Shown piece by piece: positions 31,659 to 57,844 of a DNA stretch of 64,000 bases (its first letter is position 1; the number at the start of each line of letters is the position of its first letter). A program made the position numbers and the translations under genes. The stretch lies in sequence record OM386658.1. One strand, written 5' to 3'. The notes beneath the pieces were generated by a model. That model made no database searches and was not told where the DNA came from. It saw only the letters and a list, made by a program, of their open reading frames with translations. The DNA comes from Escherichia phage vB_EcoM_ESCO32.

Positions 31659-31675
31659 TGATAATGATTATCATT
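31659..31675. promoter_or_regulatory. Fur-box-like palindrome (best copy)
   Basis: ctGATAATGATTATCATTtgc matches 16 of 19 positions of Fur consensus GATAATGATAATCATTATC; preceded by GATAAC hexamer. Confidence 0.45.
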
Positions 31676-32542
31676 TGCATACTTTCTGTACTATAAAACC
31701 GACTAAAAATCAAGATAATTCTGATTTATTGCGCTTTTAAGAAAGTAGGCTCAACAAATAGGGGAATACATTGCAACAAATGAGGTATGTTATAGGGGCA
31801 ATAGTATGAAAAATCATCTATTCAGATAAAATAATTTTGCGCAATAGTGGCAATATTTTTCTTGACAAGAAAGATTTCTTTGTGTTCACATAGCGCCCCC
31901 TGGAGGGTGGCGCATTATGATCATCAGTGTCATTATTCATTTCAGTGTTATTATTCACCATGTTTATTATATGCAGCTTATATTATAGCCAATGTTCTAA
32001 ACATTAGCTAATAATAACGCACCGCAACAATGTAAGGGAATACAATATACTCGTATATTGTTGCGCTTGCAATTGTTGCAAGCTACATAAGCACAAATAA
32101 TAACTATCGGTGATGGTTATTATGTGGGGTGTGTAGTTGCGTTATTATTAGCCGCCTATGTGTCCGGCATAGGCTGCTAATGATACGCTTGCGAATTATA
32201 TTTCTTGTTATAGTTATTGTATGAAATGATTACTACATGAAATGGTTATTTAGGTAATAGATAGGGAGGTAAAGATTAGATCATAAATAGATAGGATATT
32301 AATTATTTAGCAATGTTACTAACAATTTAATAGTTACTTTGTGCAACAATTCGATAGATTATAGTTATAGTTTTAAGGGTTAGATAGATTATAGTTAGCT
32401 TAGTAATGATTTACATTGATTATTGTTGTTTAATATAAGGTTATCAATAAGATAGTAACAGTATGTTATAAATAAAAGTAAGATAATTAGCTTTAATTTA
32501 GTTAGATAACTTATTATTTTATAAGTTAGATGGTCTTAAGTT

Positions 32543-32561
32543 AAGAATGATTATCATTATT
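32543..32561. promoter_or_regulatory. Fur-box-like palindrome
   Basis: AAGAATGATTATCATTATT. Confidence 0.4.
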
Positions 32562-43959: not shown

Positions 43960-43961
43960 TA

Positions 43962-43990
43962 TTGACAAGCCCAGGGATCGGGCTTATACT
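43962..43990 (+). promoter_or_regulatory. near-consensus sigma70 promoter with no ORF downstream
   Basis: TTGACA - 17 nt - TATACT; downstream about 200 nt are GC-rich with inverted repeats and no SD-ATG ORF. Confidence 0.5.
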
Positions 43991-44221
43991 GTCTTACATA
44001 CAGAAGAGGAAGCGCCACCCCCACGGCGTAAAGGCGGGGCTAACATACCAGGGCACTACTGGTTGGAAGGTTGATCGCCGGTAGCTCGTCTAAAATAAAT
44101 TTGTAAAGAAATGTAAAGATAAAAATAATTGCTTGCTTTTGTTGTTGGTTATGCTATTCTTATTGTATGGCGAGGGGACACGGGAGCGCGAGACAAACAC
44201 CGCCCCTGCGCGTTATTCTCT

Positions 44222-44332
44222 AAATGAGAAAATTCTCATTTGCTAATGATTCTCATTCTCTTACTGAGAATGATTATCACTTACATAGTTAAATGATAAT
44301 GATTCTCATTTACAAATGAGAATCATTATCAT
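44222..44332. promoter_or_regulatory. cluster of five Fur-box-like palindromes
   Basis: AAATGAGAAAATTCTCATTT; TAATGATTCTCATT; GAGAATGATTATCACTT; GATAATGATTCTCATTTAC (15 of 19 to Fur consensus); AATGAGAATCATTATCAT. Confidence 0.45.
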
Positions 44333-44354
44333 ACGCACACCTATAAAAACACGA

Positions 44355-44557
44355 AATTGAACTTTTCATTTTTGATTTTTCTACGGAAAAAGGCAAAAAA
44401 ACTTTAAATAAACTGGGGAATTTTTAAAAAATTGAAGTTTTCATTTTCTAAACCTGGATAGAAATACGTACAAAAACTTTAAATAATTTTGACCAAACTT
44501 GAACTTTTCATTTTCTAAATTTGTACCCAAAAATCTGTAAAAACTTTAAATAATTTT
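44355..44557. repeat. three tandem direct repeats of a 66-76 bp unit
   Basis: Each unit has TTGAA(C/G)TTTTCATTTT and AAAAACTTTAAATAA boxes separated by about 22 variable nt; approx. Confidence 0.55.
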
Positions 44558-44772
44558 GTCCTTTTTATAAAAATGATTTTACTGTTCTGTTATAAATAGT
44601 AGCTAAGAGATAATGTGTCTTTTAAAAACCAAATAGCATAGTCCAACAAACAAATTAAATAATTTATTAACAGAGTACAAAATAATACTTACTCTGGATA
44701 TATTATTCAGAGGGTGAATTTCCGTACATGAAACCCACACCCCTTTTTATAAAAATAAAAATTTTCAAAATA

Positions 44773-45324
44773 TCAGGAAATATCAGATTGTGCTTTTAGA
44801 TAAACAGCAAGGTCTGTATGCCATTTTCCTAAAAGATTTTGTCCTTTCCAACAGTCCTTATTTTCCACATCACGATCCCACATCCCCATTTTGATACCAT
44901 AAATAGAATCATAAGGGCTTGCCTCTACGAACTCCTTATCGGCGTAAGCAATAAGTTTATTTTTGAGATCTTCATTTTGTGTGTATTTAAGATACAAACC
45001 ACGCTTGACAATCTTCTCTCGTAAAGAAGTCCAGGTATCTTCATCATAATCTTTAACTAATCTGCCTAGTCGCTTATAATATGCTTGTTCTTTTTCTCCT
45101 GTATATCTTAGACCTCCGGTTAAAATAGAAGATGCAATGTTGTAATCATAAAATAAACATGCTTTTCTCCACATCATATATTGTTCCACACAAGTAAATT
45201 CAACAGAACTTGTAATAGAATTATTATACTTGGGAGCTAAAGGTTCAATAAAAGATGATAGATACCAGTTGCTAAATTCATCTTTTGCCGAGAAGAAGAA
45301 CACATACTTATCAGTAATCCGCAT
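44773..45324 (-). CDS. NADAR-domain protein (YbiA/DUF1768-like)
   Basis: 183 aa; FSNWY...VEQYMMWRKACLF...GQNLLGKWHTDL resemble YbiA/NADAR motifs FSNF...SEHYFQAQKF...N.LG; AAGGAGG SD. Confidence 0.55.
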   Translation of the reverse strand: MRITDKYVFFFSAKDEFSNWYLSSFIEPLAPKYNNSITSSVEFTCVEQYMMWRKACLFYDYNIASSILTGGLRYTGEKEQAYYKRLGRLVKDYDEDTWTSLREKIVKRGLYLKYTQNEDLKNKLIAYADKEFVEASPYDSIYGIKMGMWDRDVENKDCWKGQNLLGKWHTDLAVYLKAQSDIS

Positions 45325-46503
45325 TTACACCTCCTTACTGTATACTAACTTGCCACCATGTTGTGTAATAATTTTTTGAAGATTTTCCAAATCAGAAGCA
45401 CTTACTGTTTCTGTATGACCATCTTTCAACTCTCTTGCTGTTAAAATACCAGTTTTTAGTTTTTTCTTTATAGCTCTTTCAGCAGCCTTACACTGTTTCA
45501 CTGTACTAAAATCATATAAACAAATACGCTCCATAAAAAACATATTATGCCTATTTTGATTGTTTAATCGCCTGTCACTATCTTTAGCTATGCCAAACTT
45601 AAGAGCAACTATAATATCATTATCTTTAACAATATTAATATATAATTGCTGTTGACTATGACCTGCACATTGTGGACAACCTTGACCGTGGCTTAATAAG
45701 TTATTAACACGCCCTATCTGCTCCCCATGCACAAGACAAAGATATTTAAACTTACCTGTAGAAGATGGTTTGGTAATCCAATCTACCCAGACATACCCTT
45801 TCCCTTCTACTTCCTTTTTTACCCTATAGGTGATCTGGTCTTCTGTATACTGATAGTTCCCACAACGACACGGAATGTACCCTTGTTTAAGGCGATTTCC
45901 TTTAGAGTAAAATTTACCATCACAAACACCTGCTTGAACATATTCATCATGAGAGCAAACAGGACATTCAACCATCCAGGTAATATGCCTACATCCTTTA
46001 CCCCGTGTTCCTGTGTTAGTGAAGATAGTGCCTTCCTTAAATTTCCCTGTAGAAAAGAAACCTGCAATATGTTGATCGTCGGACATTGTTTGTTTCTCCC
46101 TCCTACATTGTGGACAACCTCGACCGACTTTAAATTGATCAATTGCTGTACTTTGCCATCTATTCCCACAATGGCACAACAAATCAAGTTTTGTGTAACA
46201 CCCTTTCCATTCTCCAACGTACCCTAATACTTGATACTCCTTCTTCTGTGCTATCTCTTCCAAGATCGGTAATTCTGCTTCCCATGTTAACGGCTTATTC
46301 CTTGCACATGTCGGACAACCACGTCCATTCTTAAAATCATTAATGCTCGTGGTGTTCCATTCTCCATGATCAGAGCAAGATAGCTTAAGTTTAGTCTTGT
46401 TCCCTTTCCATTCTCCCGTCCATCCTAAGATTTGGATTTGCTTACTCTCTGCTATTGGTTGACACTCTTCTTTATATTGTTCCCATGATTTTGGTGCTAC
46501 CAT
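45325..46503 (-). CDS. putative nuclease: triplicated Zn-ribbon repeats plus C-terminal GIY-YIG-like (T5orf172-type) domain
   Basis: 392 aa; three repeats of G(W/Y)xGEWKG..TKLxLxC...GRGCPxC; C-terminal LYINIVKDNDIIVALKFGIAKDSDRRL resembles the T5orf172 pattern. Confidence 0.5.
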   Translation of the reverse strand: MVAPKSWEQYKEECQPIAESKQIQILGWTGEWKGNKTKLKLSCSDHGEWNTTSINDFKNGRGCPTCARNKPLTWEAELPILEEIAQKKEYQVLGYVGEWKGCYTKLDLLCHCGNRWQSTAIDQFKVGRGCPQCRREKQTMSDDQHIAGFFSTGKFKEGTIFTNTGTRGKGCRHITWMVECPVCSHDEYVQAGVCDGKFYSKGNRLKQGYIPCRCGNYQYTEDQITYRVKKEVEGKGYVWVDWITKPSSTGKFKYLCLVHGEQIGRVNNLLSHGQGCPQCAGHSQQQLYINIVKDNDIIVALKFGIAKDSDRRLNNQNRHNMFFMERICLYDFSTVKQCKAAERAIKKKLKTGILTARELKDGHTETVSASDLENLQKIITQHGGKLVYSKEV

Positions 46504-46540
46504 CTACTACTCCTTTTATTAAATCTGGCATCAATACAAG

Positions 46541-46566
46541 AAAACCCGCCGGAGCGGGTTTTTATT
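46541..46566. terminator. bidirectional rho-independent terminator
   Basis: AACCCGC-cgga-GCGGGTT hairpin flanked by A and T runs, downstream of gene 46578..47705. Confidence 0.6.
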
Positions 46567-46577
46567 TGCTGGCTTAC

Positions 46578-47705
46578 TTAAAACACGCTTGCCAAAGTTG
46601 CACCATTGGTGATAGTTGGTTCCAGAACAATACGGAAAGAATCTTCTGGATCATCACTAAACACAACGATTTTACCACCTGTAATAAGATCTGCTTTCAT
46701 TTTTGTCGCATTCAATGGAATTCGAGCATCGCCTTCATCATCAAAAACCACGTAAGAGCTATTAGCAAGGGCTTCTTTAGAGTCTGCATCACTTGGAGAT
46801 GACAAGTACACGTCTAGTGTGCACGAGCCACCTAAAAAGATTGCAGGTGTAAAGTTATGCCAACTAGATACCCAGCTAACTTTCTGAAGTTTTCCATTAA
46901 TAACAACGCTACTGATATCCCATTTATTACCCCCACCCAAAGAAACGCCCATCATAGAGATACATTCTTTAAAGGATAAATCAGGGTAGAAATTAAGTTC
47001 TTCTACTATACCTTGGATCACATCAAAGGACAACTCTAAACTTACATCCCAAAGTCTTTGGAAATTATCAAAGTGTGCTTTGTTATCCAGGTTTTTATCT
47101 AAATAGTCAATCATAGTTTCTAGTGAGATTTTATCATAATTAAAATTATAAAACACACGACTAGGACGATTTAAAAAGAATTCAGAGATAAAACCACTGT
47201 TTTTAGTCAGAATAAACAGTTTATTACCACTGCCAGTACCATCTAACAAAGTGAGAAGTGCTTCTTGATCTTGTTTCTTCTCATACACTTTATCAAACTC
47301 GTCAAAAATAATCACTGCTTTGTCGGTGATCTTGCTAATAAGTTCAATGAAATTAGCATCACTGTAGGCTTGAGTAACCATAATAGTAGGAATACCTTCT
47401 TCTACAAGGTCACGACTAATGAGTTTGGCTAACATAGTTTTACCACTACCCTTAGTTCCTGTCAGAAGCAATCCTGTATTTTTACCTTGTGCACTCCGGC
47501 GATGGAATGTACGGATAACGTGATTTGCTCGTTTTTCTGTTTCACCATACAGAACATCCGGTACACCTGTCAGATTACCACGGCTTAAAAAATAATTGCC
47601 AAGGGGATCACGACTAACAGTATAGAATCCAGGTGGAAGATAGTTAGATTCCACGCCCATATCTTTATTTACACTTACAATATCACCATAAATCGTGTAT
47701 TTCAT
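46578..47705 (-). CDS. P-loop (AAA-like) ATPase, paralogue of 62467..63627
   Basis: 375 aa; Walker A GTKGSGKT, Walker B IIFDEFD; collinear similarity to the 62467..63627 product. Confidence 0.65.
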   Translation of the reverse strand: MKYTIYGDIVSVNKDMGVESNYLPPGFYTVSRDPLGNYFLSRGNLTGVPDVLYGETEKRANHVIRTFHRRSAQGKNTGLLLTGTKGSGKTMLAKLISRDLVEEGIPTIMVTQAYSDANFIELISKITDKAVIIFDEFDKVYEKKQDQEALLTLLDGTGSGNKLFILTKNSGFISEFFLNRPSRVFYNFNYDKISLETMIDYLDKNLDNKAHFDNFQRLWDVSLELSFDVIQGIVEELNFYPDLSFKECISMMGVSLGGGNKWDISSVVINGKLQKVSWVSSWHNFTPAIFLGGSCTLDVYLSSPSDADSKEALANSSYVVFDDEGDARIPLNATKMKADLITGGKIVVFSDDPEDSFRIVLEPTITNGATLASVF

Positions 47706-48362: not shown

Positions 48363-48614
48363 TTAAAATTCAACCACCACTTTATCGAGGTGCTCTGCTT
48401 CAACTTGATCTAATGTTAACACCTCAACTAAACCCTTGTCAATACCTAATTTAATAACATCAACATATTGTCCAAACAGATCCTGGATAGATATCTTGTG
48501 TTCGACAACAACAACCACTTCATTCCCTTTTGTGAATTCTCTCCATACACGTCCACATTTGAAAATAAAGTCTGCTTCATCTGCTGTTATCATTTTAGGT
48601 TTGATACTTAACAT
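48363..48614 (-). CDS. hypothetical protein
   Basis: Track ORF. Confidence 0.55.
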   Translation of the reverse strand: MLSIKPKMITADEADFIFKCGRVWREFTKGNEVVVVVEHKISIQDLFGQYVDVIKLGIDKGLVEVLTLDQVEAEHLDKVVVEF

Positions 48615-48952
48615 TATAAAACTCCGTACTCTGGTTCAATATTATGCTTACGACAAATGGCATCCCAACGCTCATTACCAAAACTTCTTCCATGTAGTGC
48701 ATCGTATGCGAAATGTTCTGCCAACCACATTACTACACCATCTGGTTCAGTGTCAAGCGGAATTCGAAACTCTCGATCATAACGCATACGGAGAACAAAC
48801 TCATTACCGTCTTCCAGCAGGTGCATATGACTTTTAGCTCGTGATGCCAAATCGAAGAAAGGAGGTTCATCGTTCCAAACGTGACGCTCAACTTCAACAC
48901 CATGATCAACTACCAAAGTGGCAATTACTTCTCTCATTTCTTTACTAAACAT
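48614..48952 (-). CDS. hypothetical protein
   Basis: Track ORF; AGGAGGG SD. Confidence 0.55.
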   Translation of the reverse strand: MFSKEMREVIATLVVDHGVEVERHVWNDEPPFFDLASRAKSHMHLLEDGNEFVLRMRYDREFRIPLDTEPDGVVMWLAEHFAYDALHGRSFGNERWDAICRKHNIEPEYGVL

Positions 48953-55069: not shown

Positions 55070-57844
55070 ATGGCTAAGAAAGAGTTGAGCTTCACTCCGA
55101 CAGAAGAGCAAACAGCTATTAAGGAGGCTTTTCCAGACCATCGCTTTTTAACTATCCAAGCTAAATCTGGGTCAGGCAAAACGTCAACACTTTATTTGCT
55201 GGCTAACAGTACAGAAGATCGCATTCTTTACTTAGCTTTCAATAAAAGCATGGCAGAAGAAGCACGACGTAAGATGCCACTAAATGTAGAATGCCGTACA
55301 TTGCATTCTATTTGCTATCAATTCCTGGATCATCGTTTACGTGCAAAACTGTCACGACCAGAAGGACAGTATGTTAACGTTGCAGGTACAGGTAGTGAGA
55401 TAGCAAAGAAATTTAAGATTAATAATCTTATTGATAAACGAGGGAAAACACTTTTAACTCGTGCTATGATCGGTTTAATGATCAAGCAAACCGTAGGTAA
55501 GTTTGAATTTTCGGATGATCCTTTTATCAGCCGTAAACATTTTCCTAGTGTACATCTTGCAGATATTAAAAGAAAAGGTATTAACGAACACAAACTAATT
55601 ACAGAAGTAGTTAAGTATGCAAAACAATTGTGGCGAGAGCGCATCGATCCTAACACAGACACTTTGATGACGCATGACACCTATGTAAAATTGTTTGAAT
55701 TATCTGGTGCTGATCTTGGTTATGATATTATTTTTGGTGATGAATTCCAGGATGTTAACCCTGCATTCTTATCTATTCTGCGAAATGCTAAATCTGCAAA
55801 ACAAATTGTGGTAGTGGGCGATGAATTCCAATGTGTGTCGGAAAACACGGTACTTAATACCGAGAATGGTCAGGTTACAATGAAAGACCTGCAAATCGGT
55901 GATAAGGTAGAGTCTTATTCTAATGGTAAAGTTACATTTAGAAAAGTAACAAATAAGACTTTATCTACACGTACAAAAGGTAGGAATATTATTACTGCCA
56001 CAGGTAAAACTTTAGATATGACACATAACCATCGTATTTGGGCTTCATCCTATGTTCTGAAAGATGATCAGATGGTGGTATACCTAATGTGGAGGAAAGA
56101 TTTAGGTTTCCGAGTAGGGATCACTAACAAATTCGATGATAAAGAAGGTTTTTCTAAACTGGGGCAACGTACACGTTCTGAAAAAGCACAGAAATTGTGG
56201 GTGTTGGATATTGTTGAAAACCGTGAAGCTGCTATGGAAAAAGAAATGGCATACAGTTTACAATATGGCATTCCTACTTGTGTATTTGAAGCAAGTTCAC
56301 GCGGCATTAATCAAGAAAGGATCAATAACATTTTTGAACAATTCGGACAAAACGGTTTTAAACTTTTAGAGGATAAAGATTATCATTTTGCTTATCCACA
56401 TTGGCACAGCATCAATTGTGCAGTAGATGAAAGAAAAATGTTAACAGTGACTTTGCGAGCACAAGGTTGTAAAGGAACACAAGTTAGTTTTGAGTGGACA
56501 GAAAGTGAAATGTCAATCTATGCTTCACTCATTGAAGCAGGTGTAAGCGTAAGTGTTGCTAAGTTGGAAGGTCGTTACCGTGTACGTAAATATTTCAATT
56601 CTTATCGTGAAGCATTGAGTTTTGCACAAAAGATCCTTGAAATAGTGCCGTTTGCATCTTTAAAAGAATGCATGTCCTCTGTGAACACCGCCAAATATAC
56701 TTTAATTCCGGCGGCGGGTTTGTTTAAAGGCATGTCTGTGTTGGTAAAAGATGGTGATACTGTAACGGCAGAAGAAATTGTGGACATTGTAGATAGTGAA
56801 GGTATCTATTATGATATTGAAGTAGAGGATACTGCTAACTTCTTTGGCAATGAAATTCTTAGCCACAACTGCATTTATCAATTTAGAGGTAGCTCTAATA
56901 TGATGATTGAAACAGCTAAGTATGGGGCAGAGCTTCCATTAACTGCTTGCTTCCGTTTTGGCCCCAAAGTGGCAAACATTGCCAATATGATTTTAAGCGA
57001 TAAAGAACCTTTGCGTCATCCTTTGGTTGGTAAAGGCTTTGATACTGTAGTAGGTAGCTACAAATCAGATGTTGTAGACTATACAAAACCTTACACTATC
57101 ATCTTTCGCAAGAATTTAACCTTGCTTATGGAGGCAATGGATCGTATTGCAGATGGGGAAGAAATTATTATTAACGTAGACACCAGGGATTTTATCTCTA
57201 TGGTAGATAGTGTTAATGCTCTTCGGAGAGGAGATATTGAGAAAGTAAAACATGAAACTGTATTACCTTACGCAGACTGGGATGAATTTGTTGAGTGTGC
57301 AGAGGCTGATCCAGATGCTAAACGCTTGTTAAACATTGTAGTTTCTGGTAAGGCAAACACTATAGCACATACACTTAGAACGCATAGAAATTCTCCTACA
57401 GCAAAAGTCACACTGACTACAGCACATAAGTCTAAAGGTTTGGAGTGGGATCAGGTTATTGTTGCTAATGATTTTCCTTCCAATTATGATAAAAAGACTG
57501 GTGAGTGGGTAGGACTAGAAGAGGCAGAGCGAAACCTACTGTATGTAGCGCATACCCGTTGTGTTAAATGCTTACAATGGAACACAACCGTACAGGAGAT
57601 TATAGATATCAACCGTGTTGCAACAGAGAAAGTACCAACAAGCACCACTTTACCGATCAATGGTATTAAACTTGGTGTATTTGGCGCTGGCACATCTCGA
57701 AAAGCTGTAGAAAAATTTGTTGCAGATTCTTTTGATGGTAACTATAATCATGCACAAGCATATGAGAGTTGGCTAGAGGAAGGTGAAGGTGATTTTTTAG
57801 GTGAAATAAATCTTTTACCAGACATAAATAAACTGGTAAACTAA
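55070..57844 (+). CDS. UvrD/PcrA-like superfamily 1 helicase containing an intein
   Basis: Track ORF trimmed to ATG 55070; Walker A AKSGSGKTST, motif II IIFGDEFQD; motif III is split (VVVGDEFQ / CIYQFRGSS) by a 346-aa insertion. Confidence 0.8.
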   Translation: MAKKELSFTPTEEQTAIKEAFPDHRFLTIQAKSGSGKTSTLYLLANSTEDRILYLAFNKSMAEEARRKMPLNVECRTLHSICYQFLDHRLRAKLSRPEGQYVNVAGTGSEIAKKFKINNLIDKRGKTLLTRAMIGLMIKQTVGKFEFSDDPFISRKHFPSVHLADIKRKGINEHKLITEVVKYAKQLWRERIDPNTDTLMTHDTYVKLFELSGADLGYDIIFGDEFQDVNPAFLSILRNAKSAKQIVVVGDEFQCVSENTVLNTENGQVTMKDLQIGDKVESYSNGKVTFRKVTNKTLSTRTKGRNIITATGKTLDMTHNHRIWASSYVLKDDQMVVYLMWRKDLGFRVGITNKFDDKEGFSKLGQRTRSEKAQKLWVLDIVENREAAMEKEMAYSLQYGIPTCVFEASSRGINQERINNIFEQFGQNGFKLLEDKDYHFAYPHWHSINCAVDERKMLTVTLRAQGCKGTQVSFEWTESEMSIYASLIEAGVSVSVAKLEGRYRVRKYFNSYREALSFAQKILEIVPFASLKECMSSVNTAKYTLIPAAGLFKGMSVLVKDGDTVTAEEIVDIVDSEGIYYDIEVEDTANFFGNEILSHNCIYQFRGSSNMMIETAKYGAELPLTACFRFGPKVANIANMILSDKEPLRHPLVGKGFDTVVGSYKSDVVDYTKPYTIIFRKNLTLLMEAMDRIADGEEIIINVDTRDFISMVDSVNALRRGDIEKVKHETVLPYADWDEFVECAEADPDAKRLLNIVVSGKANTIAHTLRTHRNSPTAKVTLTTAHKSKGLEWDQVIVANDFPSNYDKKTGEWVGLEEAERNLLYVAHTRCVKCLQWNTTVQEIIDINRVATEKVPTSTTLPINGIKLGVFGAGTSRKAVEKFVADSFDGNYNHAQAYESWLEEGEGDFLGEINLLPDINKLVN
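55832..56869 (+). mobile_element. intein (346 aa) inserted in helicase motif III
   Basis: Starts with Cys (CVSENTVLN, block A), block B LDMTHNHRIW, C-terminal blocks YYDIEVEDTANFFGNEILSHN ending His-Asn, followed by +1 Cys; size implies an internal endonuclease-like domain. Confidence 0.75.

What the first reader, a model, noticed from the sequence alone, without database searches (positions are those of the whole stretch)
45325..46503. Nuclease-like protein with three internal zinc-ribbon repeats
Three consecutive 60-70-residue repeats each carry G(W/Y)xGEWKG..TKL.L.C...GRGCPxC, giving six CxxC-type pairs. They are followed by a C-terminal segment (LYINIVKDNDIIVALKFGIAKDSDRRL) resembling GIY-YIG / T5orf172 nuclease cores. 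The architecture suggests a sequence-specific endonuclease (homing-endonuclease-like or anti-host), but I do not recognise it as a named T4 protein.
Basis: partly seen in the sequence, partly recalled or inferred. Interest (0 to 1): 0.6.

Follow-up and report, generated by a model that had tools for sequence, protein, structure and literature searches.

The report
Zinc-finger-array phage homing-type endonuclease
This gene of an rV5-like E. coli phage (not T4) encodes a member of a described class of putative phage homing endonucleases: four CapR-type zinc-finger DNA-binding modules in front of a T5orf172 (GIY-YIG-fold) nuclease domain, so it is ordinary in kind, with a clear record of module shuffling.

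Summary

The window is a Justusliebigvirus (rV5-like E. coli myovirus), not T4. This architecture was described for phage T5orf172 putative homing endonucleases (Netter 2021; Barth 2023). RefSeq already calls the orthologue "endonuclease".

The gene appears fixed between an AAA ATPase gene and a NADAR gene in about 55 related genomes. The ATPase is at least 99% identical in 54 of them; the endonuclease reaches 95% in only one. Divergence is confined to the zinc-module segment and is mosaic. Homologues carry 0-4 N-terminal modules. The closest relative shares the module block with 0/846 differences while the flanks differ by 1.3-3%.

Most likely it is an active sequence-specific DNA endonuclease. 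Target and role (homing or allele exclusion versus an anti-competitor function) are untested. Verdict: new member of a known kind, low interest.

The parts
45325..46503 (-). Complete gene, 392 codons plus stop (stop codon 45325-45327): a CapR-array + T5orf172 putative endonuclease
   Evidence: ORF list; Pfam CapR E = 1.4e-38 with 4 stretches, plus T5orf172; PHROG 681 'endonuclease' E = 6.7e-85
46303..46476 (-). Zn module M1 (res 10-67); ligands C43, H46, C63, C66
   Evidence: Hits CapR PF21817 on its own, E = 3.1e-14; 52% identical to M2
46105..46263 (-). Zn module M2 (res 81-133); ligands C110, C112, C130, C133; tandem duplicate of M1 with a 201-nt period
   Evidence: CapR on its own, E = 7.6e-13; alleles with a single M1/M2-type module exist, e.g. 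Antha and P0010
45859..46041 (-). Zn module M3 (res 155-215), long-spacer type; ligands C180, C183, C212, C214; the most conserved module of the family
   Evidence: CapR on its own, E = 1e-10; D186, G208, C212 and C214 invariant, C180 and C183 conserved in 56 of 57 sequences
45664..45837 (-). Zn module M4 (res 223-280); ligands C256, H259, C276, C279
   Evidence: CapR on its own, E = 4.3e-5, 24.0 bits against a 24.2 cutoff (borderline); C256, C276 and C279 invariant, H259 in 55 of 57
45328..45663 (-). T5orf172 / GIY-YIG-fold nuclease domain (res 281-392); invariant Y288, K302, G304, R312, E342, E365
46541..46562 (-). Terminator-like hairpin (AAAACCCGCTCCGGCGGGTTTT) between the ATPase stop codon and the endonuclease start
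   Evidence: Consensus scan; a terminator is annotated at the same place in phage PATM. Function is inferred only.
46510..46516 (-). Shine-Dalgarno sequence AAAGGAG, 6 nt before the ATG at 46503
   Evidence: Read directly from the sequence
45667..45688 (.). 22-nt nucleotide repeat at the GxGCPxC knuckle of M4. The copy in M2 (46105-46126) is 21/22 identical; the copy in M1 (46306-46327) is 68% identical. Candidate recombination substrate for module loss or gain.
   Evidence: the repeat finder family D1; homologue P0025 is joined exactly at this motif, from the M2 knuckle into the M4 tail
44773..45324 (-). Abutting downstream NADAR (YbiA-like) gene. Its ribosome-binding site lies inside the last codons of the endonuclease gene (AAG GAG GTG TAA ATG). 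This is context, not part of the nuclease.
   Evidence: Pfam NADAR E = 3.2e-36; sequence
46578..47705 (-). Upstream AAA-type ATPase gene (context). At least 99% aa identical in 54 phage records, in contrast with the endonuclease.
   Evidence: Pfam AAA and PHROG 2376; tblastn identity bands

Best explanation
The gene encodes a free-standing, homing-type, sequence-specific DNA endonuclease of the CapR-array/T5orf172 class.

Shown by computation: four independently folding Cys/His zinc modules of the CapR family (M1-M4) are strung N-terminal to a T5orf172 domain. That domain has a GIY-YIG fold and a conserved Tyr/Lys-x-Gly/Arg/Glu/Glu constellation.

Inferred from the studied relatives: the zinc modules each contact a few base pairs and together read a long DNA site, as the CapR zinc finger of the Vibrio satellite PLE binds DNA. 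The tethered T5orf172 domain then cuts nearby in a metal-dependent reaction that needs the conserved Glu (here E365), as shown for ICP1 Odn E180.

Inferred biological role: during co-infection with related phages, the enzyme cuts genomes that carry a sensitive site. Repair from the nuclease-encoding genome then drives local gene conversion (homing or marker exclusion). Target range is retuned by gain, loss and swapping of zinc modules through recombination at short nucleotide repeats. This would explain a gene that is fixed in the genus yet carries a mosaic, cassette-like DNA-binding region.
For: Domain identity: Pfam CapR E = 1.4e-38 with 4 stretches. Each module hits on its own, M4 borderline at 24.0 against 24.2 bits. 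T5orf172 is above its gathering score. PHROG 681 'endonuclease' E = 6.7e-85.

Conservation: G304, E342, E365 and the ligands C212, C214, C256, C276 and C279 are invariant in 57 homologues down to 26% identity. Y288, K302, R312 and the other M2-M4 ligands are at least 90% conserved, except the C110xC112 knuckle, whose second position varies in the alignment. Y288, K302, G304, R312, E342 and E365 are all invariant in the 24-sequence domain alignment. dN/dS is 0.1-0.5, so the gene is not decaying.

Precedent: the T5orf172 nuclease Odn cuts DNA in vitro and E180A abolishes cutting (PMC8263062). The CapR Cys pairs are required for DNA binding (PMC8096241). Repeated CapR/DUF723 modules in T5orf172 putative homing endonuclease genes, and in-frame module deletions, are already described (PMC10448857).

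Exchange signatures: the flanks are 95-100% nt identical among 6 relatives, but the Zn-module segment is 54-90% identical in different patches. Module dS of 0.3 to >1.7 compares with 0.06-0.10 in the ATPase. Homologues carry 0-4 N-terminal modules. Nucleotide repeats sit at the observed junctions. There are 0/846 differences in the module block against the closest relative, whose flanks differ by 1.3-3%, P about 8e-8.
Against: There is no experimental data for this protein or for any close homologue.

Homing of CapR-T5orf172 genes has never been demonstrated; the authors say so.

The classical hallmark of a homing endonuclease gene, patchy presence and absence with an identifiable empty target site, is not seen. 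The gene sits in the same slot in all relatives inspected and, by matching counts, in all ~55 Justusliebigvirus records. The only absence found (EP57) is a larger deletion.

No target site could be inferred.

Foldseek matches to GIY-YIG structures are individually non-significant, and sequence-profile searches of the PDB found nothing.

The second Tyr of the canonical GIY-YIG motif is replaced (K-F-G), as is usual in T5orf172. Its effect on chemistry is unknown.
Confidence: 0.65

Rival explanations
1. It is an Odn-like weapon rather than a selfish homing gene. On this reading the phage keeps the nuclease because it destroys a competitor: a satellite, a prophage, a co-infecting unrelated phage or a host element. 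The zinc array diversifies in an arms race with the target's sequence.
For: The gene is fixed rather than sporadic in the genus. Variation is concentrated in the DNA-binding array while the nuclease domain is conserved. ICP1 Odn is a T5orf172 nuclease with exactly this role. [quoted passage not shown]
Against: The DNA-binding part is CapR-type, not a domain copied from a known satellite. No related DNA was found in 5,426 complete E. coli genomes. No PADLOC family matches. No candidate target is known. Deep allelic divergence combined with recent block exchange fits phage-to-phage exchange at least as well.
Confidence: 0.15
2. It is mainly a DNA-binding regulator, a domesticated homing endonuclease like PLE CapR or the autorepressor activity of I-TevI. 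It would use the zinc array to repress or tune transcription of neighbouring phage genes, with cleavage secondary or lost.
For: CapR itself is such a domesticated repressor. The gene is embedded in an operon-like run and supplies the ribosome-binding site of the NADAR gene. It is fixed in the lineage.
Against: CapR lacks the nuclease domain, whereas here the T5orf172 domain is complete. Its putative catalytic Arg and Glu and four other residues are invariant across distant homologues. A conserved regulator would not be expected to swap its DNA-binding modules among near-identical genomes whose putative operator regions are 95-100% identical.
Confidence: 0.1
3. It is an inactive, decaying remnant of a homing endonuclease gene that reached fixation and no longer has targets.
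For: The standard life cycle of a homing endonuclease gene predicts degeneration after fixation, and the gene is fixed here. Truncated or fused variants exist among homologues, such as P0025, P0048 and P0026.
Against: The reading frame is intact in all inspected relatives (one search checked that each allele has a single terminal stop). dN/dS is well below 1. All Zn ligands of M2-M4 and the active-site residues are conserved, apart from the variable second position of the C110xC112 knuckle. The AlphaFold model is confident.
Confidence: 0.05

Closest known systems
ICP1 (Vibrio phage) T5orf172 putative homing endonucleases with CapR domains, e.g. Gp165 and Gp174 (Netter et al. 2021, PMC8096241; Barth et al. 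2023, PMC10448857)
   Same: Same two-part architecture: N-terminal repeated CapR-type Zn-finger modules and a C-terminal T5orf172 domain. tblastn gives 29% identity over 77-81% of the protein to ICP1 Gp165. The same evolutionary behaviour is seen: in-frame loss or gain of one module through recombination between degenerate internal repeats (ICP1 gp174 loses 228 bp; here the module period is 201 nt).
   Different: Different host and phage lineage (rV5-like E. coli myovirus). There are four modules, including a distinct long-spacer module M3 that is the most conserved part of the array. There is a single copy in the 64-kb window rather than a multi-copy family. The gene is fixed at one locus across a genus rather than variably present. 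No satellite-encoded CapR counterpart was found in E. coli.
PLE CapR (capsid repressor of the Vibrio cholerae phage satellite)
   Same: Same Zn-finger family (Pfam PF21817 is named after it), with two Cys pairs required for DNA binding.
   Different: CapR is a 15.5-kDa single-domain repressor without a nuclease domain. This protein has four such modules plus a complete T5orf172 domain.
ICP1 Odn (Gp88), origin-directed nuclease
   Same: Same T5orf172 nuclease domain family. Odn is the only member with demonstrated in vitro DNA cleavage, and it depends on the Glu that corresponds by motif to E365 here.
   Different: Odn's DNA-binding domain is RepA_N, copied from its satellite target, not a CapR array. 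Odn is an anti-satellite effector, whereas the role here is unknown.
T4-type GIY-YIG homing endonucleases (I-TevI, Seg proteins)
   Different: No detectable sequence similarity (hhalign failed). The domain order is reversed: in I-TevI the nuclease is N-terminal. I-TevI uses a linker Zn finger, a minor-groove helix and a helix-turn-helix rather than a tandem Zn-module array. The T5orf172 motif has K-(F/I)-G in place of Y-I-G.
Slx1 / HIGLE structure-specific GIY-YIG nucleases
   Different: 13-15% sequence identity only. These are eukaryotic structure-specific nucleases with RING/PHD partner domains, so the match shows shared fold, not shared function.

Membership tests
CapR homology domain (Pfam PF21817) | Profile match above the curated gathering score | tested here: met
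   Whole protein 131.3 bits against a 24.2 cutoff, with 4 stretches. On their own, M1 scores 53.4, M2 48.9 and M3 42.0 bits. M4 scores 24.0 bits, just under the cutoff when isolated.
CapR homology domain (Pfam PF21817) | Two pairs of Zn-ligand residues (CxxC ... CxC in CapR) spaced about 16-28 residues apart | tested here: met
   M3 has the canonical C180xxC183...C212xC214. M1, M2 and M4 have the variants CxxH/CxxC, CxC/CxxC and CxxH/CxxC. The ligands of M2-M4 are at least 90% conserved, except that the second position of the C110xC112 knuckle is variable in the alignment.
CapR homology domain (Pfam PF21817) | Zinc-dependent sequence-specific DNA binding | not testable with these tools
   Shown only for PLE CapR, by EMSA and Cys-to-Ser mutants (PMC8096241).
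T5orf172 (Pfam PF10544; GIY-YIG superfamily) | Profile match above the gathering score | tested here: met
   23.8 bits against a cutoff of 20 for the whole protein; 25.8 bits for the isolated domain, profile positions 10-97 of 101.
T5orf172 (Pfam PF10544; GIY-YIG superfamily) | GIY-YIG alpha/beta fold (beta-beta-alpha-beta-alpha core) | tested here: met
T5orf172 (Pfam PF10544; GIY-YIG superfamily) | Conserved first-motif Tyr, motif-2 Gly, catalytic Arg and metal-binding Glu | tested here: met
   Y288, G304, R312 and E365 (plus K302 and E342) are invariant in the domain alignment. In the 57-sequence alignment G304, E342 and E365 are invariant and Y288, K302 and R312 are at least 90% conserved. 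Assigning E365 to the Odn E180 / I-TevI E75 position rests on motif position, not on a verified structural superposition.
T5orf172 (Pfam PF10544; GIY-YIG superfamily) | Metal-dependent DNA cleavage | not testable with these tools
   Demonstrated only for Odn.
Homing endonuclease gene (functional class) | Sporadic presence or absence among close relatives, with an identifiable empty (target) site | tested here: not met
   The gene is present at the same locus in all inspected Justusliebigvirus and Phapecoctavirus genomes. The counts of records with the ATPase at 95% or more and the endonuclease at 60% or more are both 55. The only absence found is a larger deletion in EP57.
Homing endonuclease gene (functional class) | Local signatures of gene conversion or recombination centred on the gene | tested here: met
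   Mosaic divergence is confined to the gene. dS in the modules is far above that of the flanks. A block with no differences against the closest relative sits inside flanks that differ by 1.3-3%.
Homing endonuclease gene (functional class) | Cleavage of the cognate allele and biased inheritance in crosses | not testable with these tools
   Needs biochemistry and phage crosses. It is unverified for the whole CapR-T5orf172 class.
T4 Seg / I-TevI GIY-YIG homing endonucleases | Sequence-level membership: canonical GIY...YIG motifs with an N-terminal catalytic domain | tested here: not met
   hhalign of the domain profile against I-TevI residues 1-97 (sequence recalled from memory) gave no alignment. 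There was no Pfam GIY-YIG hit at E <= 1, only T5orf172 and MUG113. The nuclease domain here is C-terminal.

The most novel reading that the evidence does not exclude
The gene may not be a classical selfish homing element. It may instead be a permanently resident, cassette-programmable nuclease, in effect a natural zinc-finger nuclease. On this reading co-circulating rV5-like phages continually re-assort the number and identity of their CapR modules to retarget the nuclease against each other or against an unknown parasite. The conserved M3-M4-T5orf172 core would act as the cutting unit and the variable N-terminal modules (0-4 copies) as add-on specificity readers. If module-to-DNA recognition were additive, the array would be a new modular DNA-recognition code.
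Probability: 0.15. Interest if true: 0.55.

Novelty: new member of a known kind. Interest (0 to 1): 0.2.

Why it matters
For annotation, the gene should be labelled a CapR-domain/T5orf172 (GIY-YIG superfamily) putative homing endonuclease, not a hypothetical protein and not a T4-like gene.

For biology, it extends to a well-sampled genus of E. coli phages the pattern reported for ICP1. The nuclease domain stays constant while a tandem zinc-finger array is duplicated, deleted and exchanged. In this genus the neighbouring genes are nearly identical, so the exchange tracts can be read base by base.

That makes these phages a convenient system for three open tests: whether T5orf172 genes actually home, what each CapR module recognises, and why such a gene stays fixed. 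None of this is surprising to a specialist.

Tried and rejected
- T4 origin: rejected. The best DNA matches are Justusliebigvirus genomes.
- "Three repeats, six CxxC": replaced by four CapR modules with eight knuckles.
- Paralogues in the window: tblastn with the whole protein and with each module found none.
- Sequence-profile searches of the PDB with the full alignment and with the domain alignment found only noise: bL31 at E = 0.06 and RF1 at E = 3.5.
- hhalign of the nuclease-domain profile against the I-TevI catalytic domain gave no alignment.
- Search for an empty site: relatives from both genera all carry the gene, and EP57's absence is a deletion that also removes part of the NADAR gene.
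- Satellite or prophage counterpart in E. coli: no DNA match in 5,426 complete genomes. Protein-level search of bacterial genomes was not done.
- PADLOC defence families: no hit for the nuclease.
- The Barth 2023 supplementary tables list genomes of related phages (Inny, Muut, Mt1B1_P17), but I could not confirm that this exact gene is in their T5orf172 set.
- Side check of the non-coding stretch downstream: no tRNA and no credible Rfam family.

Full report
**1. The observation**

An uninterrupted ORF of 392 codons lies at 45325..46503 on the minus strand. It starts with an ATG six bases after an AAAGGAG Shine-Dalgarno sequence. Its stop codon TAA is followed at once by the ATG of the next gene, so the last codons of this gene (AAG GAG GTG) serve as that gene's ribosome-binding site.

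The internal repeats are real. The segments I call M1 (res 10-67) and M2 (res 81-133) are 52% identical over 56 residues at 68 bits. M4 (res 223-280) is 43% identical to M1 over its C-terminal 30 residues.

Cutting the protein into five pieces and scanning each alone against Pfam gave a CapR-domain (PF21817) hit for four separate pieces: E = 3e-14, 8e-13, 1e-10 and 4e-5. The last is borderline at 24.0 bits against a 24.2 cutoff. The fifth piece gave a T5orf172 (PF10544) hit at 25.8 bits against a cutoff of 20 (whole-protein values).

It has a longer spacer between its knuckles. Each module has four candidate zinc ligands:
- M1: C43xxH46 ... C63xxC66
- M2: C110xC112 ... C130xxC133
- M3: C180xxC183 ... 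C212xC214
- M4: C256xxH259 ... C276xxC279

That makes eight knuckles, of which four are strict CxxC, not "six CxxC-type pairs".

**2. Genome context**

The window is not T4. The locus is 98.7% nt identical to Escherichia phage pEC-M2929-1AR.1 and 93-96% identical to some 50 other Justusliebigvirus genomes (Stephanstirmvirinae, rV5/phi92-like myoviruses of about 146 kb).

- Upstream lies an AAA-type ATPase gene (46578..47705), followed by a strong terminator-like hairpin at 46541-46562. A terminator is annotated at the same spot in phage PATM.
- Downstream lies a NADAR/YbiA-like gene (44773..45324).
- RefSeq annotates the orthologue as "endonuclease" in phages PHB05, alia and ukendt. UniRef calls it a "CapR homology domain-containing protein", and in phi92 it is gp222.
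- PHROGs places it in phrog_681, "endonuclease", at E = 7e-85.

**3. What the parts are**

*The nuclease domain.* An alignment of 57 homologues down to 26% identity shows that G304, E342 and E365 are invariant and that Y288, K302 and R312 are at least 90% conserved. In a 24-sequence alignment of the C-terminal domain alone, all six are invariant. The most distant members show the textbook T5orf172 pattern, LY(V/I)L ... K(I/F)GIT.

AlphaFold2 with this alignment gave a confident model: pLDDT 90.9 for the whole chain, with a low pTM of 0.53 as expected for beads on a string. The nuclease domain alone gave pLDDT 95.3 and pTM 0.88 with the topology beta-beta-alpha-beta-alpha ... alpha-beta.

*The zinc modules.* The ligands of M2, M3 and M4 are invariant or at least 90% conserved, except the second position of the C110xC112 knuckle, which varies in the alignment.

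**4. What is known about this class**

- CapR is the capsid-operon repressor of the Vibrio cholerae phage satellite PLE. Its two Cys pairs (CxxC ... CxC) are required for DNA binding. It was recognised as a domesticated copy of the N-terminal domain of ICP1 phage proteins that end in a T5orf172 domain (Netter et al. 2021, PMC8096241).
- T5orf172 is a branch of the GIY-YIG superfamily. The ICP1 T5orf172 protein Odn cuts DNA in vitro, and a Glu-to-Ala change (E180A) abolishes cutting (Barth et al. 2021, PMC8263062).
- Barth et al. 2023 (PMC10448857) surveyed 229 phage T5orf172 putative homing endonuclease genes. They found that 87% carry CapR, DUF723 or DUF4397 zinc-finger domains, frequently in multiple copies. 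They also showed in-frame deletion of one repeat in ICP1 gp174 by recombination between degenerate repeats.
- The same authors state that homing by these genes has not been verified experimentally.
- The closest studied relative of the window protein is ICP1 Gp165, at 29% identity over about 80% of the length.

**5. How the gene behaves in this phage group**

(a) *It is fixed, not sporadic.* It sits just downstream of the ATPase gene in every Justusliebigvirus and Phapecoctavirus locus I inspected. The number of phage records with the ATPase at 95% identity or more (55) equals the number with this protein at 60% or more (55). The single absence, in EP57, is a deletion that also removes part of the NADAR gene.

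(b) *It evolves quite differently from its neighbours.* The ATPase is at least 99% identical in 54 records, whereas the endonuclease reaches 95% in only one.

(c) *The divergence is confined to the zinc-module coding part and is mosaic.* In 150-nt bins against six relatives, NADAR, ATPase and the T5orf172 part stay at 94-100%. Bins in the zinc-module part fall to 54-90%, and different modules are affected in different phages: PATM in M3/M4, ESCO8 in M1, alia and KKP_3264 in several.

(d) *Synonymous divergence in the modules far exceeds that of the flanks.* dS is 0.3 to >1.7 in the modules against 0.06-0.10 in the ATPase, while dN/dS is 0.1-0.5. These are old allelic segments moved by recombination and kept functional, not a gene decaying in place.

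(e) *Module number varies.* Homologue lengths fall into steps. A local HMM count gives the scheme [M1-type]n - M3 - M4 - T5orf172, with n = 0 (P0048), 1 (325-342 aa, e.g. Antha), 2 (390-408 aa, this window), 3 (465-486 aa, e.g. alia) and 4 (P0021). P0025 jumps from the M2 knuckle directly into the M4 tail, and P0026 is a tandem fusion of two complete units.

(f) *Short nucleotide repeats sit at these junctions.* A 22-mer at the GxGCPxC knuckle is 21/22 identical between M2 and M4. A 14-mer lies at GEWKG, and the M1-M2 period is 201 nt.

(g) *The closest relative shares the module block exactly.* Against pEC-M2929-1AR.1 the 846-nt module block has no differences while the flanks differ by 1.3-3% (P about 8e-8 for a uniform rate). 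This allele was therefore shared as a block recently.

**6. Interpretation**

The most likely reading is an active, sequence-specific DNA endonuclease. An array of four zinc modules reads a long site, and the tethered T5orf172 domain cuts nearby.

Domain identities, fold, conservation and the recombination pattern are shown computationally. DNA binding, cleavage, the catalytic roles of R312 and E365, and the biological role are inferred from CapR, Odn and the GIY-YIG literature.

The role I favour is homing-type drive or allele exclusion in mixed infections, retuned by module shuffling. Against it, no empty target site exists among sequenced relatives.

The main rival is an Odn-like weapon against a satellite or competitor. 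It is compatible with fixation and a diversifying DNA-binding array. However, I found no related DNA in 5,426 complete E. coli genomes, no PADLOC family and no paralogue in the window.

A purely regulatory (CapR-like) role or an inactive remnant is unlikely, given the invariant active-site residues and purifying selection.

**7. Novelty and score**

This is a new member of a known kind. The family, the repeated CapR modules, the T5orf172 nuclease and the module indels are all published, and the orthologue is already labelled "endonuclease" in RefSeq.

The only mildly notable points are the fixation of the gene in a whole genus, the conserved M3-M4-nuclease core with 0-4 add-on modules, and the very clean exchange tracts. 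Interest is 0.2.

Noticed in passing
window 44215-44345 (also 31660-31678, 32543-32561, 56372-56390): A cluster of four iterated 24-29-nt palindromic units lies in the non-coding gap downstream of the NADAR gene. It includes a perfect 19-nt inverted repeat (44293-44311 / 44314-44332). The units resemble the E. coli Fur-box consensus GATAATGATAATCATTATC: there are 6 matches with at most 3 mismatches in the window against 0.04 expected by chance. Possible readings are an iron/Fur-regulated promoter, a Fur decoy or origin-like iterons.
   Followed up: partly
window 43960-44210: A GC-rich (about 46%) stretch with no convincing ORF is conserved at 72-87% nt as unannotated DNA in many other phage genera (Klebsiella, Cronobacter, Salmonella PVP-SE1-like, Pectobacterium, Erwinia). 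ARAGORN finds no tRNA and there is no credible Rfam family. It may be an undescribed conserved non-coding RNA or a cis element.
   Followed up: partly
window 44250-44750: A very AT-rich segment (GC 0.26-0.29) lies next to the iterated palindromes. Iterons next to an AT-rich tract is the classic layout of a replication origin. This was not tested.
   Followed up: no
window 44773-45324 (-): A NADAR/YbiA-like gene (Pfam E = 3e-36) also matches the PADLOC candidate family PDC-M42C at E = 1.6e-34. It appears translationally coupled to the endonuclease gene, with its Shine-Dalgarno sequence inside the endonuclease's last codons. From my own knowledge, NADAR enzymes can reverse ADP-ribosylation of DNA bases, so this could be a counter-defence gene.
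   Followed up: no
window about 48550-48900 and beyond: A second hypervariable patch: nucleotide identity to phages alia and KKP_3264 drops to 51-82% while four other relatives stay at 95-100%. In alia and KKP_3264 the annotated gene at this position is longer (552 nt against 339 nt).
   Followed up: no
related records MG065639, MG065656, MG065645, MG065650 ('Campylobacter phage' A150, C3, A145, B15): Records labelled as Campylobacter jejuni phages are about 95% nt identical to these E. coli Justusliebigvirus and Phapecoctavirus genomes, and their ATPase is 100% or 64.5% identical. The host label looks doubtful; contamination or mis-assignment is possible.
   Followed up: no
homologue P0026 (669 aa, metagenomic): A single ORF contains two complete zinc-array + T5orf172 units in tandem, that is two nuclease domains. 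It is either a fusion of adjacent homing endonuclease genes or a sequencing or gene-calling artefact.
   Followed up: no
window 46578-47705 (-): The AAA ATPase upstream (PHROG 2376) is annotated variously as 'ATPase or Zn metalloprotease' and 'FtsH-like protease', but only the P-loop region (res about 60-170) matches known families. The C-terminal 200 residues have no Pfam match.
   Followed up: no
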